In this document: positions 554-63,419 of the stretch, in pieces
How positions within the stretch are numbered: position 1 is the stretch's first letter
Layout of the letters: the number at the start of each line of letters is the position of its first letter
NCBI GenBank assembly: GCA_012026655.1
Contig: JAAILG010000874.1
Coordinates: 1 to 64,000 of the forward strand
DNA: 64,000 nucleotides
Direction: 5' to 3'
Origin: Hydrolagus affinis
Lineage: Eukaryota
Notes under the pieces: model-generated
Database searches by the model: none
What the model saw: the letters and a program-made list of their open reading frames with translations, nothing else
Told to the model about the DNA's origin: nothing
Program-made: the position numbers and the translations under genes

Positions 554-1046
554 AACAACAACAACAAAGTAACATTTGTACAGTGCCTTTCACGGCGGGA
601 GAACAACCCAACGTGCTGGACGGTCGATGTGTCAAACCCGAGCTGGGGTCGGGATCAGGTCGGATGGAGGGAAAGGAAGGAATTTGGGGTCACCCATGGA
701 ACCGTCGAAGAGGAGAGTTTTGAGGCGGGACTTGAAGGAGCCAAGGGAGGGGGTGAGACAGAGGGACTCAGGGATGGAATTCCAGAGATATGGGGCAGAG
801 TGGCTGAAGGCTTTCCTGCCGATGGTGATGCGAGTGGGTGGACATGGAGCAGGCTGGAGTCTGCTGAATGGAGGGAGTAGACAGATTCGTAAGGGGTTTA
901 GGAAGCCGCAGAGGTTGGGTGGGGTGAGGCCATGGAGGACTTTGAATGTGAGGACCAGGATCTTGAATTGAATCCTCTGAGTGATGGGGAGCCAGTGGAG
1001 TCAGGCAAGAATGGGGGAGATGGCGTCACAGAACTTGGAGCACAGA
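554..1046 (-). mobile_element. L2-clade LINE 3' fragment
   Basis: (AAC)n tail at 554-567. Minus strand encodes an LHWLPI.QRIQFKILVLTFKVLHGL-type L2 ORF2 C-terminus, homologous to 61951-62873. Confidence 0.9.
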
Positions 1047-10714: not shown

Positions 10715-11809
10715 ATAGGTATCATAATCTATGGTTTGCAAGAAGGAAGAAACTCCCACCAAAATATTCTTTGCATTTTTAACATGCTGACATGACTGGA
10801 TGAAATTAGTATTATTATGAATACACATTTCAACACACTGAGAAATATTTTACATGGATGGCAAAAAATACAGATCACTTTGGTACATCTTTATCAAGCA
10901 AAAATCACAATGGGAAATTGCACAAGTATAGTGAAAATCACCAGTTCCATTTAGCTATTAGTTAAGATCCTACAGTATACTGCCTCAGAATGGTATCATT
11001 ATCTGGAAAGTTGAAGTGACAGATTTACTGGCATCCATTCTACTGTTTAATGAGTATCAAAACAAAACTTACACATTTTCTCTTTAATTGTGGCCAAAAC
11101 AGTGCTCCGAGCATTTTTTTTAAAAAAAGTGACTGTTTTCATTACATTGCTTTAACCAGTGACAGTGTTACCTTTCCTCAATGCACATAGCATCACAAAC
11201 AAAAAAAACAAGACATTTTAAATTGCCGAGTTTCTTTCATCCATTATTTATGATTTATGAATATTTCAGTTCTAATGTTATTCCCTATCAATCATCTGTA
11301 CCATATCCGATTTTGTAAAATATTGCAGTAATATGTTTATGTGCATGATATCACGTAATAACGCTTTGAACTAGAAATGATGGAACTGGGAATGAATTGA
11401 CCATTGCATTGTTTGAACAATTTGGGGAGAATTAAGTTTTTTTTATATATAATCTTACACCGATGTTTAGTTTGAGGTCACTCACATACACTTTTATGAG
11501 ACTTGTCATTAAGTGTTGTATTTTGGGGGGCACATGCGGATAATTATTCATTTATATACAATTATTTTTGAGGAACGTTTTACTGTGTGGCACATGGTGA
11601 AAACGCTCAACAATTGCAAAACTAATTTAGCGATTATGAGGTAACTCAACTGAATCCATCCCAATGTCACTGATGAGGTCTCAGAGTTTGTTGCTTGGCA
11701 GCAAGTCTATGGATGCCCAAATATTAGTGATCAACAGCAATAATCCTTGCATTGAATATAAAGCTTTTCACGTCTTTTAGAAGTCTTGAAGCGCTTCACG
11801 GAATAAACT

Positions 11810-11937
11810 AGAAAAAATGAGTCAACGTTTCGGGTCCACGACCCTTTGTCAGACCCGAAACGTTGACTCACTTTCTTTTCTTCATAGAGGCTGCCTGACC
11901 CGCTGAGTGTTCCCAGCGATCTCTGTTTTTGTTTCAC
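11810..11937. mobile_element. Penelope-like element end fragment (inverted plus direct terminal segment)
   Basis: Perfect 19-bp inverted repeat at 11818-11836 / 11852-11870, followed by gctgcctgacccgctgagtgttcccagc, which I recognise as a shark Penelope-type terminal repeat. Confidence 0.7.
11821..11852 (-). ncRNA. Minimal type-I hammerhead ribozyme-like motif (probably degenerate)
   Basis: Minus strand reads CUGACAA-A-GGGUC-GUG-GACCC-GAAA-CG-UU-GAC. This gives the CUGANGA core with one G>A change, a 5-bp stem II, GAAA and a palindromic ACGU. Confidence 0.6.
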
Positions 11938-14064
11938 ACTGTGAAGTGAATTGACTGCATATATGTGGAGGAGTCACAGCAGCCAATTGAGCACAGCAGT
12001 GAGTGTACCACAAACTGTCGTGGATTGAGTGACCAAATTATTATTGTTTTTATTCAGGATTATTATCCCAGAAAAAGCGACCCGCCCAACATTTCACCCA
12101 GGAATAGAACGCATGTTTCTTGCTTGTGAGGCGAGCGCTCCGACCACTGAGCTGCAGGACTCCACAATGGAGTTGTACCATACATGAGCTCTGCATTGTC
12201 AGGAGCTTCTAAAAATACATGACTCTCCAGTGTAGGTAGAACTTACTCCAAGACTATAGTCAATAATTGAAAAGTCTTTACATGTCAGGATGACAACTCA
12301 TGCACGTTGTGAATTACCCTCACCATGGATTTAACAGCATAATGTTTTGGGACTGAGAAGTGAAATAGCCCTATACATACAAAACTCTTCTGGTTTGGCT
12401 GCGACTGGCTCTTCAGCCAATCTCTGTATGTCATTTTCTACCTGCATGCAAGTAAATGGCTGCTATTTAAACGCAAGTAGTTGTGATGTGAACCATTTTG
12501 GAAGTTATTAACTAATGCAGTGCATTTTCAGGATGCCTGGAGTCACCTTGCAGTGTGGAAACCACACCTTCCAGTATTCGTATATGTTACATCAATATCA
12601 GATTCAAAACCATGAGATCCATGAGTCCAGTTTAGGTGCAACAAGCTTGGCACTTCAACATTTTGTGCAGTTGGAAACAAAGCTGGACAAACAGAACTCC
12701 AGGCAATGCCTCATTATTTAATTATTAACCACACAACATTTGTTACTGGTTATATAATCAGCCTTCAGTGCATCTGTGCAGATAGACTCTGATGACTCAA
12801 TTTTATTGCAACAAATTCCATAGACTTTACAACAGTATCCATCCCTCCTAATCCCCTCTTTCACTCTATTCCTTCAAGTTACAGTGTTAAAAGAGATTTA
12901 TCTTGGTAGGCACAACAGAACCTCCTCATTCAAAGTCAATTATTGCATGGGTTTCACAAGAATACAAAGCATCAAAAGAGAGGAAAATACATCCCAAACT
13001 GCCACATCGCTGGGAAAGAATGCACAGTTTCAAACTGAAGATTCCTTGCCTTAGGGTTCAGAGCTTAATTTTGCGAGTGAACAATCTTTTGGGGCTGGTG
13101 ATAACATAAGACGAATGGAAATGTTACCTGAAAATCTTTCAGCAAACAGCTGTTCATTATAGATGTTTTGCTTGCCTAATGCAGAATCATATCTGGATAC
13201 CTATGTGCATCCTGTTCAGTCCACAGGAACAGAGAAATAACAAAGTATTTTGCTGAAATGGAAATGGAACAATATTGCTCAATGTTGAACTGTTATCTAT
13301 TGATAACTATGATACACTGTATTAAAAAAAGCGCCTTTCACACCCCGAAGCACGTGATAAATCTATTCCATCTTGTATCTGTTATTTATGTATGTTTCTT
13401 ATATATAAGAAAAATCTCAAGTGAGTATACACCAAATAAACTGTTAAAACTTGAACTAGCAATTAAAAAATTGCAGGTGCCATGATTAACACGATTTTTC
13501 AGCAGTGTTAAGTACACTGCAGGATATAACACGCAAATGTAACACTTAGCCAAACAGTCAGGATTACTGAAACAAGTAAAGACATCATAAGAAACAGGAA
13601 AGCACAATGAATATAAAGAAAGTTTGTTTAATGATTGGTCTTATATACTTTATCTAAATGGGTGTCATGTAGATTAATAGGACCAAATAATGCCCACATG
13701 TCCTACGAAAGTAAGTTTGCCTTTAAATGGATGTCCATATGTTGATCAACTTGTTAACCTGTTGCTTTTATTCACAGATTTACATAGGGCAAACCATGCT
13801 TCTTCTACTGTCTCAGCAGGTAACGCTTGCAATCTGGCTAACCTCAAGTAGCTACACTCTGATGGTCTTCAGTCCATTTCTTCTTCTGACACATCTCTAC
13901 CAGGAAGTAAATTCATTTTAAAATATCCATCCATCTGTCACTTCCTTTTGCTCAGGGTGATGATTTTAACATGACATTGTTACGCAGTGATAGCACAACT
14001 GCATATGTAAGAAGCGAATTCGCTGTTCTCTATTTTATTTGGCTCATAACATTAACACAAAGTA

Positions 14065-60740: not shown

Positions 60741-61950
60741 TAGCCTGGTTACACCTTCAATCATTTTCGCTCATCACTACAGTGTATACAACACAAGCTG
60801 ACTGGTGCTGGAGTGCTCATAGTCTCCATTTAAAATGCGAGATGGCATTTGACAATAAAAACACTTCTTGTGGATGATGGAAATGCTGCAATAAACACAA
60901 CATTACAGCCATGAAATAATTTAATTAAATTATGGTGCAAGTTGGCGGACTGTCTGTCTTTCATTTGTACTAATAAGGTCTCGAGGTAAATCAGCTCATG
61001 CGGGTAATGTTCCAAGATTTAAGAACATTCATTAGCTGGTCTTCCTTGCAAAGCAGCAGGTTGTACCTGACCAAACTATTTAATAACACACACTAAAGTG
61101 TTGCATGTAAGGTGAAGGATTCTATCAGCATACATTTGTCAAAATAGAACAAGTGTAAACCTAACAAGTCAATACTTTCACCAGCTTCCTGAAAAGAGAG
61201 GCAATGTTTTTTATTTAATTATTTAGTTGCAGTGATTTTTCTACCAATGTTTTTGAGCATTGTGAAAACACAGCCAACCTTGATGTGTGTGGCAAATTGT
61301 GCAAAATCATTGAATCAATGAGTTGAAAAAAAAATTCCAAGGAGCTGAATGATGAGCCTAGGTTCATGAGGGGAAACTTTCCGCGATGAAGAAATGCGAG
61401 TTGTTTAACATTCCTACATTGTCATCCAGTGATATAGTATCATAAAAAGACACCTTTGGATGTTTTTTACACATGGGTAAATGCTGAAGTACACACCATG
61501 GAGTCGAGTCTAATTAAAACAATGGATTTAAATTTTACAGAGTTCTGAGTCCCATCTCTGACCACATTAGCCATTCCAGAGGTTGTTAGCATGTCCTTGG
61601 AGCCTTGCATGAGCTTGATGTGCTGCCATACACCAGTAGTTTCAGTAACTGCAATTCTGTTGAAGGCTGATAATCAGACACAAAAGTTACAAGGGAGATT
61701 AAAAAGAAATAGAAGTCTGTATTATGTTTTCATTCTGAAAACACATAGCCATAACTGAAACCCGGGGAGATATCAAGCCAGGAGTATTTAAAAAAATCTT
61801 ACACCACCTAATTCCACCACTTTTAAGAGTGATATTTCATTGAAACCATAGATAAAGCGTAATTTTACATATTGTTGAACGTATACATTCTGTTTGCACA
61901 TTAAGTGCAGTGAGAGTAAGTGCATAGATATGGTGACTATGACACCCTAT

Positions 61951-62873
61951 GACATTGAGTACTGGACAAGGGCAAATTTCCTACAACTCAACGTCAACAA
62001 GATGGAAGCCCTTCTGATTGGCTCACGTCAGCGCCTTTGCACCTCAGGCGCTGACAACATCAGCGTTCAAGGCTGCTCTCTTCACCTCTCGAAGCCAATC
62101 AGGAATCTGGGCATCTTGTTCGACCCTGAACTATCCTTCCTCGCCCACATCTGCTCCATGACCAGCACAGCCTTCCATCACTTCTGCAATATTGCCAGAC
62201 TCCGTCACTACCTCAACCCCCACGCCGCCGAAACTCTCATCCACGCTTTCATCACTTCCAGGCTCGACTACAGGAATTCTCTCCTCATCGGCCTCCCCAG
62301 CTCCTCCCTTTACAGGCTGCAGAACATTCAGAACTCTGCAGCTCGTGTACTCTCCCGCACCAGACTTTACGATCACATCACTCCCACCCTCGCCCGTCTC
62401 CACTGGCTCCCCGTCACCCAGAGGATCGAATTCAAGATCCTTGTTCTCACTTTCAAGGCCATTCACGGGCTTGCCCTGCCTATCTCTTTGACCTACTGTC
62501 TCCCAATCAACCCGCCCATCCCCTCCGTTCAGCAAACTCAGGCCTGCTCCGCATCCACCGCCCGAACCGCCCAACCATCAGCGGCCAGGCTTTCAGCCGC
62601 TCTGGTCTCACACTGTGGAACTCCATCCCGCAGCCCCTCCGCCTTGCTTCCTCCCTTTCCTCTTTCAAGGCTAGTCTCAAGAACTTCCTCTTCGACCGCG
62701 CCTTCGGCTGCCCACTAACTCTTCCCCCTCTCCCACTCTCCTTCCCCTTCCCCCTATCCCAACCCTCCCTCCCCCGCCCCCGCTCAGGTCCCGACCTGAC
62801 TGTTCAGCACTTTGGGACGTCATTCCGATGTGAAAGGCTTTATATAAGTACAATTTTGTTGTTGTTGTTGTTG
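61951..62873 (+). mobile_element. 5'-truncated young L2-clade LINE (ORF2 C-terminus + 3' UTR)
   Basis: ORF 61894-62718 contains NFLQLNVNK, NLGILFD, LIHAFITSRLDY.NSLL and LHWLPVTQRIEFKIL. One frameshift near 62476. (GTT)n tail. Confidence 0.96.
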
Positions 62874-63419
62874 ACTGTCTCTCTAGTGACTTTTGGGTAT
62901 ATGAATGATGCCTTTTCAAGCTTATTACTCCATATTAATTGCATGCATGCTGGTGATTGCTTGAAATGGATTTACATAAAATCCCAATTATATTCGGCTG
63001 TGGTTGCAAGCTTGTGCGGGTGGTCGGAGGGGCACGGGGAAATGTATGAAGATCAACATTGTTGGGGCCCACAACACAACCCAATACCCAGCTGGCTGGC
63101 ACTGTAGCACCACAAAGCACTCATTATCTTCCCCCAATTGCAAAACCTGGCTCTGCCACTGACACATTGACTCATTAAGTCTGTTGGATTTCTTGGAGAG
63201 TGGGTGAGAATGTTTCATACTTGGAGATCAACACATTTAATAAGGTTCTTCATTCTGCAAATATCAATGCAATTGCCGATCTTGAGGAATTGCCGATTCA
63301 GGATTAGAGCAATTGTTTGGCACTTGTAGTATGAATGGTTTCAATTCCCTTAATTTATGATCAAGTGTTATGTTTTCACAGTAAAGACAGATGGAGGCCT
63401 TGGAGTAGATAGATGATAT

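What the first reader, a model, noticed from the sequence alone, without database searches (positions are those of the whole stretch)
11810..11937. Penelope-type inverted insertion carrying a minimal hammerhead-ribozyme motif, inside a SINE
Seen: a ~128-bp insert interrupts a SINE. It has a perfect 19-bp inverted repeat, and its minus strand reads CUGACAA-A-GGGUC(GUG)GACCC-GAAA-CG-UU. Established: Penelope-like retroelements carry minimal type-I hammerheads with a nearly absent stem III and a palindromic loop (proposed to cleave as dimers), and they often insert with an inverted terminal segment. Inference: this is such an end. The core G8>A change (CG>CA, consistent with CpG decay) probably inactivates this copy, but the source family may encode an active ribozyme. 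It is younger than the SINE it interrupts.
Basis: partly seen in the sequence, partly recalled or inferred. Interest (0 to 1): 0.7.

Follow-up and report, generated by a model that had tools for sequence, protein, structure and literature searches.

The report
Dead mirror-image Penelope stub in SINE
This 128-base insert is a broken, back-to-back pair of end pieces of a very common Penelope-type jumping gene, and its small self-cutting RNA motif is predicted to be dead, so it is ordinary, although its many sister copies suggest that the element's RNA likely starts right at that motif and was likely copied uncut.

Summary
Observation confirmed. The insert (11810-11937) splits a tRNA-headed SINE and consists of two head-to-head pieces of one pseudo-LTR (pLTR) that overlap by 2 nt. 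The parent is in the same genome: a Penelope-like element with RT, a Neptune-type Zn-finger linker and a GIY-YIG nuclease. The hammerhead motif follows its stop codon in 38 of 43 informative loci. Three subfamilies give 6,732 exact 23-mer hits. In 144 copies picked by a downstream motif, 70 are inverted; 57 of 62 classifiable pairs join a tail-less arm to a tailed arm, the published Penelope pattern. This copy is predicted dead: G8>A (CpG decay at the neutral rate), no 5' strand of stem I, and a long hairpin that buries the core. Family-level extra: 5' ends pile up at the hammerhead's first bases (89 of 207 arms), not at its cut site (9), often behind an untemplated G. That likely marks a capped transcription start and uncleaved templates. 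This scan reported such stubs before, in this genome and others, and the start-site reading once on other DNA. Ribozyme activity was not tested. New member of a known kind.

The parts
11810..11853 (-). Inverted pLTR arm, element positions -1 to +42 (C3 of the hammerhead = 0); carries the hammerhead core; outer end cut short
   Evidence: Alignment to natural copy L066 (L001)
11820..11852 (-). Minimal type-I hammerhead remnant: CUGACAA core (G8>A at 11847), unpaired A, 5-bp stem II with 3-nt loop, GAAA, palindromic ACGU in place of stem III, predicted cut 11824/11823, stem I 3' strand; stem I 5' strand missing
   Evidence: Sequence
11852..11936 (+). Forward pLTR arm, element positions +16 to +101; tail-less 3' end class; no CUGANGA
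   Evidence: L001; 3' end classes
11852..11853 (.). 2-nt overlap (microhomology) that joins the two arms; the same junction recurs in other loci, in both polarities
   Evidence: L003, L005, L006, L010, L021, L027
11818..11870 (.). Perfect 19-bp inverted repeat with 15-nt spacer, a by-product of the two overlapping arms
11739..11809 (-). 3' part of the interrupted tRNA-headed SINE; ends in ACT (11807-11809), the only duplicated bases
   Evidence: BLASTN to other window copies
11938..12164 (-). 5' part of the interrupted SINE with tRNA-like head
   Evidence: weak Rfam tRNA match 12094-12161

Best explanation
The insert is two head-to-head fragments of the pseudo-LTR of an abundant Penelope-like retroelement (RT plus GIY-YIG, Neptune-type linker) inside an older SINE, likely made by priming reverse transcription on both cut target strands, and its minimal hammerhead is predicted to be inactive. 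Shown: identity of the arms, link to the ORF, family anatomy, three lesions in this copy's hammerhead. Inferred: (1) the nuclease nicks both strands about 12-16 nt apart; (2) each nick primes cDNA at one of two internal start sites about 33 nt apart, giving one tail-less and one tailed arm; (3) the template is an uncleaved RNA that likely begins, capped, at the first base of hammerhead stem I, so both cDNAs stop within about 100-140 nt; (4) the two cDNA 3' ends join through 2 nt of microhomology; (5) one later deletion likely removed the outer part of the left arm and most of one target duplication; (6) CpG decay gave G8>A. The intact family motif would cleave only as a dimer or with protein help, by analogy with tested relatives.
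For: ORF link: hammerhead 186-316 nt after the stop codon in 38 of 47 distinct ORF-anchored loci, 38 of 43 with enough downstream DNA (3 duplicates of 50 dropped). RT motifs and GIY-YIG; Pfam GIY-YIG 25.3 bits, above cut-off; RVT_1 22.1 and 27.5 bits, below the 29.6 cut-off; 796 homologues at E <= 1e-20, best named ones from sharks and rays at 60-64%, most listed with RVT_1. pLTR end runs straight into the ORF's 5' end in L166. Copy number: 2442 + 2752 + 1538 exact 23-mer hits, controls 0 (inverted loci can count twice). In 144 loci picked by that downstream motif: 70 inverted; tail-less + tailed in 57 of 62 classifiable pairs (8 pairs with a shortened arm set aside); for the largest set 36 of 40 against 20 expected, p = 9e-8. 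Target duplications of 12-19 nt in 22 of 89 loci. Neutral decay: non-CpG divergence 6.1% in the hammerhead, 6.0% downstream; a fully intact motif in 8 of 144 loci. Start site: 89 of 120 arms that reach +3 end within -7..+3, while 6 of the 31 that pass end in the next 11 nt; 9 of 176 end at the cut site +26..+32. G precedes A(-4) in 55 of the first 100 of 663 matches, against 26 of 100 one base further out, and in 8 of 14 against 36 of 154 other starts (p = 0.01; samples partly overlap). Literature: inverted 5'-truncated copy and one-sided 30-40 bp tail (PMC8557442, PMC3846280); both strands nicked and extended, two internal RT starts, uncleaved RNA the main substrate (PMC11167929).
Against: This copy is atypical: only 3 nt are duplicated, and a tail-less arm paired with a shortened arm was seen in 0 of 70 inverted loci, so step 5 is an assumption. 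No intact full-length ORF was found; all copies read have stops or frameshifts. Pfam RVT_1 stays below cut-off. No Rfam hammerhead hit. Covariation is inconclusive. G is also frequent before starts at -3 (44 of the first 100 of 786), part of it explained by inversion microhomology, so the cap signal is not unique to one base. RNA reads from a related organism show no pile-up of starts or ends at either site, in a library not suited to show them. No Neptune reference sequence was aligned; the clade call rests on motifs.
Confidence: 0.92

Rival explanations
1. The mirror arm is made by fold-back self-priming of a single cDNA (or of an antisense template, as proposed for rotifer Penelopes), not by priming on both target strands.
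For: Arms of one locus share subfamily letters: 18 of 19 informative pairs at one diagnostic site; shared non-CpG variants 6.6% against 3.1% in permuted pairs, 0 of 500 permutations as high. Junctions cluster around stem II and its loop. PMC3846280 argues for self-priming.
Against: Fold-back does not by itself explain why the two arms end at two different fixed sites (57 of 62). The same junction occurs with either arm carrying the tail (L003 against L021). Clear stem-I fold-back junctions are rare (L390, L422: 2 of 55). Sharing of subfamily letters is also expected from one active source at a time.
Confidence: 0.2
2. The pile-up of 5' ends at the hammerhead's start reflects an RT stop at a structure or bound protein, or a 3' splice site (CAG|TT), not a transcription start.
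For: A pyrimidine tract and CAG lie directly before the motif. In D. virilis Penelope an intron ends at the 5' end of helix I (PMC4209133). The ends spread over about 10 nt.
Against: Target duplications or a few unrelated bases abut the 5' end, with no shared upstream exon. An extra G before A(-4) fits a read cap (known for L1: PMC4038843, citing Gilbert 2005). The pile-up is seen in all three subfamilies (55 of 130, 14 of 42, 18 of 37 arms).
Confidence: 0.3
3. The hairpin is a self-spreading non-autonomous fold-back element (MITE-like or retrozyme) that moves as a unit.
For: 40 scored genome candidates match most of the 128-nt query including the inversion; the same junction recurs.
Against: The query selects for that junction. 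Outer ends differ from locus to locus, the junction occurs in several subfamilies and both polarities, and unbiased junctions vary widely. Head-to-tail arrays, which define retrozymes (bioRxiv 10.64898/2026.07.22.740005), were not a feature of the 144 loci.
Confidence: 0.04
4. This copy has been kept by the host as a working ribozyme or RNA hairpin.
For: The hairpin is strong (-49.5 and -56 kcal/mol).
Against: C3-G8 is broken without the compensating U3 (the U3-A8 variant of PMC4209133); stem I has a G-A mismatch; the core is buried in the hairpin; the family decays at the neutral rate.
Confidence: 0.02

Closest known systems
Minimal type-I hammerheads in pLTRs of metazoan PLEs (Cervera and De la Pena 2014, PMC4209133)
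   Same: Short stem I (4 bp), unpaired base between positions 9 and 10.1, G10.1-C11.1 pair, no stem III with palindromic 15.2-16.2, thousands of lone copies, reported in fish Xena, Poseidon and Neptune elements.
   Different: Stem II is 5 bp (7-8 bp in Schistosoma). This copy has G8>A and lacks the 5' strand of stem I. Whether this family is among the paper's supplementary sets was not seen.
Insertion units of EN+ PLEs with inverted pLTR, one-sided tail and TSD (PMC8557442 Fig. 2; Adineta Pen2a, PMC3846280)
   Same: Adjacent inverted 5'-truncated copy, about 33-nt tail on one arm only, target duplication, overlap at the inverted junction.
   Different: Here both arms are only 44 and 85 nt with no ORF; the window copy has lost most of its duplication. 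The one-tail rule is counted here (57 of 62).
Poseidon_Ac of the green anole (Frangieh et al. 2024, PMC11167929)
   Same: Two internal RT start sites that delimit the tail; both strands nicked and extended; uncleaved RNA used as template; C3 and G8 needed for cleavage.
   Different: This family has the CxxxxCxxC linker that Penelope/Poseidon lacks, and its likely start codon lies after the tail, whereas the anole ORF begins in stem II. No biochemistry exists here.
Neptune clade PLEs (features as given in PMC8557442)
   Same: [quoted passage not shown]
   Different: No tree with named Neptune, Nematis or Poseidon references was built.
Non-LTR retrozymes (bioRxiv 10.64898/2026.07.22.740005)
   Same: Short non-coding, type-I hammerhead, PLE-derived.
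   Different: Retrozymes are head-to-tail tandem units; this is a single head-to-head pair.

Membership tests
EN+ Penelope-like element (parent family) | Single ORF with RT followed by GIY-YIG endonuclease | tested here: met
   read in broken copies, RVT_1 below cut-off, GIY-YIG above in 1 of 3 C-terminal fragments scanned
EN+ Penelope-like element (parent family) | pLTR both after the ORF and directly before its start (partial tandem) | tested here: met
   After: 38 of 43 informative loci. Before: L166, one locus
EN+ Penelope-like element (parent family) | Inverted 5'-truncated copy, optional 30-40 nt tail on one arm, target duplication | tested here: met
   70 of 144 inverted; 57 of 62 one-tail pairs; TSD 12-19 nt in 22 of 89
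EN+ Penelope-like element (window copy) | Full target-site duplication around this insert | tested here: not met
   Only ACT is duplicated. This is a feature of the insertion event, read here as later loss; copies without a TSD are also described (PMC3846280)
Neptune clade | CX2-5CxxC linker Zn-finger and CCHH motif in the nuclease | tested here: met
   CxxxxCxxC before the nuclease and CxxC between the two catalytic motifs, with downstream His residues
Neptune clade | RT phylogeny with named references | not tested
   No labelled reference sequences were on hand
Minimal type-I hammerhead (family motif) | Core CUGANGA / GAAA / NUH, stems I and II, palindrome at stem III | tested here: met
   stems I+II -8.2 kcal/mol in L066; AACGUU palindrome
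Minimal type-I hammerhead (family motif) | Compensatory changes in stems | tested here: inconclusive
   Subfamily variants keep pairs by one-sided change. Of 24 double changes at one stem II pair, 14 are Watson-Crick, but several are duplicates and many are two transitions
Minimal type-I hammerhead (family motif) | Self-cleavage as dimer or with protein | not testable with these tools
   Needs transcription in vitro. Plain cofolding of two copies did not give the active dimer as the lowest-energy form
Minimal type-I hammerhead (window copy) | C3-G8 pair and stem I | tested here: not met
   C3-A8; G-A mismatch in stem I; core buried in hairpin. Filed as a remnant, not as a ribozyme
Rfam hammerhead families | Covariance-model match | tested here: not met
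   No hit
Non-LTR retrozyme | Head-to-tail units, each with a hammerhead | tested here: not met
   Single head-to-head pair, one core

The most novel reading that the evidence does not exclude
The hammerhead is the very first structure of a capped Penelope mRNA: transcription starts at the first base of stem I, in an initiator-like site. The thousands of 100-140 nt stubs are then complete copies of the RNA leader, made by internal priming just downstream, with the cap read as an extra G. Templates were uncleaved, so self-cleavage would cut off a capped 33-nt leader and work as an off-switch or translation control, not as the step that makes the template. The genome would hold a readable map of start site, both RT starts and both nicks for a vertebrate Neptune element.
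Probability: 0.55. Interest if true: 0.5.

Novelty: new member of a known kind. Interest (0 to 1): 0.22.

Why it matters
The insert itself matters little: a decayed stub of a known class. The family statistics matter more. The role of the hammerhead in Penelope elements is open, and only one element has been run in vitro. Here natural insertions show one tail-less and one tailed arm per event, cDNAs that pass the cut site, and 5' ends that stop at the ribozyme's first base behind an extra G. If that is a capped start, it gives a direct test of when the ribozyme cuts and what it removes.

Tried and rejected
Rfam at gathering score and at E <= 10: no hammerhead. Pfam on the 71-aa ORF end: nothing; 2 of 3 longer C-terminal fragments also missed GIY-YIG. 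Targeting of the SINE: 11 of 89 insertions touch the SINE against 35 of 400 random window positions, no clear enrichment. Covariation search for other hammerhead families: 24 hits, nearly all of the 20 inspected were mutated copies of the same family; inconclusive. Fold-back on stem I as the source of the extra TG before the 5' end: rejected, since T at -6 does not follow the +34 base (25 of 37 with A, 6 of 10 with T) and the next base is G in 2 of 35. A shared upstream exon spliced to the hammerhead: none seen. Sequencing runs: no RNA holder listed. Raw RNA reads of one sample of a related organism gave no pile-up of starts or ends; a poly(A) single-cell library cannot settle this. Horizontal transfer from sharks was considered because and dropped: the host may itself be a cartilaginous fish. 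Lunse et al. on dimer cleavage is not held; recalled only. Ten literature searches found no paper that names this family or reports a capped start at the hammerhead's first base; the library is incomplete and no supplements were read. Look-up by sequence in earlier findings: nothing.

Full report
1. Observation. The described sequence is there. A perfect 19-bp inverted repeat spans 11818-11836 and 11852-11870. The minus strand carries the hammerhead-like string, with C3 at 11852, position 8 at 11847 and the predicted cut between 11824 and 11823. The flanks are the two halves of one tRNA-headed SINE, which has 33 BLAST hits covering about 8% of the window; only ACT is duplicated. Rfam finds five tRNA-like SINE heads in the window and no hammerhead, even at E <= 10 around the insert.

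2. A family. The insert has 3,738 first-look candidates in the 1.11-Gb own genome, of which 40 were scored. A 32-nt intact form of the motif has 111 exact matches, control 0. Three 23-nt downstream variants have 2,442, 2,752 and 1,538 exact matches, controls 0; these are lower bounds, and inverted loci can count twice.

3. The parent. Walking upstream from motif-bearing loci led through a pyrimidine-rich stretch to an ORF end, which has 2,947 candidates, 150 scored. In 50 ORF-anchored loci (47 distinct) the hammerhead lies 186-316 nt after the stop in 38; of the 9 without it, 4 had under 300 nt of downstream DNA. Longer copies show the RT motifs typical of Penelope-like elements (DKG, PKIHK, MDVQSLY, YIDD; motif names recalled, the DKG motif is also in PMC8557442), a CxxxxCxxC linker and a nuclease with CxxC between its catalytic motifs. 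Pfam gives GIY-YIG above cut-off in one fragment and RVT_1 just below. A 420-aa RT piece has 796 homologues at E <= 1e-20; the best named ones are from sharks and rays (60-64%), then marine invertebrates (about 50%). In L166 the pLTR end runs directly into the 5' end of the ORF, the partial-tandem layout of Penelope elements. The linker points to the Neptune type (PMC8557442); no tree was built. All copies read are broken. The host is a fish, likely cartilaginous (inference; earlier notes say chimaera, unchecked).

4. Anatomy of insertions. With C3 = 0, I mapped arms in 144 loci picked only by a motif at +59..+81: the first 100 listed places (90 fetched, 89 distinct) and the first 30 loci each (26 and 29 distinct). 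Seventy are head-to-head pairs. 3' ends fall in two classes, about +94..+104 and about +132. Of 62 pairs with both arms in a class, 57 have one of each, 3 two short, 2 two long; 8 pairs with a shortened arm were set aside. Target duplications of 12-19 nt were recovered in 22 of 89 loci. This is the published pattern of an inverted copy with a one-sided 30-40 nt tail (PMC8557442, PMC3846280), and it fits the anole element, which nicks and extends both strands and starts RT at two internal sites (PMC11167929).

5. The window copy. Left arm -1..+42 on the minus strand, right arm +16..+101 on the plus strand, overlapping by 2 nt. The same junction recurs in L003, L005, L006, L010, L021 and L027, with different outer ends, different subfamily letters and either arm tailed, so it is a recurrent joint and not one amplified hairpin. 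The copy is unusual in having 3 duplicated bases and a short-plus-shortened pair (0 of 70). Three other insertions at the same SINE site have 12-14 nt duplications (L017, L039, L059). One later deletion of the outer left arm and most of one duplication would explain both oddities; this is inference. Insertions are not clearly enriched in the SINE (11 of 89 against 35 of 400).

6. The hammerhead. The family motif has the features of the minimal type-I form of PMC4209133: 4-bp stem I, an extra A before a 5-bp stem II, G10.1-C11.1, and a palindrome in place of stem III. In this copy G8 is A, the 5' strand of stem I is replaced by the other arm (G-A mismatch), and the RNA folds into a long hairpin over the core (z = -6.7). 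G8>A occurs in 18 of 81 arms, like the other CpG positions, and non-CpG divergence is the same inside and outside the motif, 6.1% and 6.0%; 8 of 144 loci keep a fully intact motif. Covariation was inconclusive. Activity was not tested.

7. Where the copies begin. 5' ends do not spread evenly. Of 207 arms, 89 end within -7..+3; 89 of the 120 that reach +3 stop there, while 6 of the 31 that pass stop in the next 11 nt; 9 of 176 end at the cut site. All three subfamilies show it. The site matches an initiator consensus (recalled) with A at -4. G precedes that A in 55 of the first 100 of 663 matches, against 26 of 100 one base further out (counts by hand from the listing), and in 8 of 14 against 36 of 154 in the unbiased set (overlapping samples). 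In seven loci a few unrelated bases ending in G lie between the duplication and the A. Fold-back on stem I and a shared upstream exon did not fit. An extra G from a read cap is known for L1 (PMC4038843, citing Gilbert 2005). Against: G is also common before starts at -3 (44 of 100), and RNA reads show no start or end peak. In one sample of a related organism the ORF and 3' UTR are covered mostly on one strand, likely sense, and the pLTR on both. I put the capped-start reading at 55%. A promoter inside the pLTR is known for D. virilis Penelope (PMC2377424) and Chlamys-3 (PMC8557442), but there the start lies upstream of an intron.

8. What I read. PMC4209133: parts 1-2 of 4 of the text. PMC11167929: parts 1-2 of 4. 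bioRxiv 10.64898/2026.07.22.740005: part 1 of 5 and passages. PMC8557442, PMC3846280, PMC2377424, PMC4038843: passages (39, 67; 53; 90). No supplements; those of PMC4209133 and PMC11167929 may list this family or its 5' ends. Ten searches found no paper on this family or on a capped start at the hammerhead.

9. Earlier notes. The scan lists 674 findings with these words in at least 42 genomes, four related ones in this genome, and one with the start-site reading on other DNA. I saw them after my tests; they are not support.

10. Verdict. This is a dead, mirror-image pLTR stub of a known class; new member of a known kind; interest 0.22. The family-level start-site and cap signal is the only part worth bench time.

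Noticed in passing
window 11895-11937 (+); family positions about +58 to +102: The tail-less 3' end coincides with a strong 3' splice-site look-alike (branch-point-like CTGAC, pyrimidine run, CAG in the family). Penelope elements often have a 5' UTR intron. No spliced read was seen, but the test was weak.
   Followed up: partly
L277 (G000:C4178:1934-1967, -): A hammerhead-like core with a longer stem II region and flanks unlike this family; possibly a second Penelope family in the genome.
   Followed up: no
L354-L423: The unrelated bases before the family's 5' end are most often TG (36 of 55 G-preceded matches); several other copies carry a short repeat of the element's own first bases in front.
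   Followed up: partly
L184-L273: A small second group of 5' ends lies at about -26 to -50, just past a C-rich run (10 of 130 arms).
   Followed up: no
window, whole: The host SINE is very abundant: 33 hits, about 8% of the window; five heads pass the Rfam tRNA cut-off (3185, 39049, 39809, 44042, 52044). Family not identified.
   Followed up: partly
window 632-1000 (-) and 61879-63107 (+): Open frames that look like the 3' end of a LINE reverse transcriptase (CR1/L2 type, resemblance recalled, not tested).
   Followed up: no
L129:1396-2757 (-): A 453-aa open frame that looks like a host membrane-protein exon lies just upstream of a long Penelope copy.
   Followed up: no
L017, L039, L059, L064, L084, L130, L201: Several insertions hit the same 13-nt SINE segment as the window copy, though SINE contact overall is not enriched.
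   Followed up: partly
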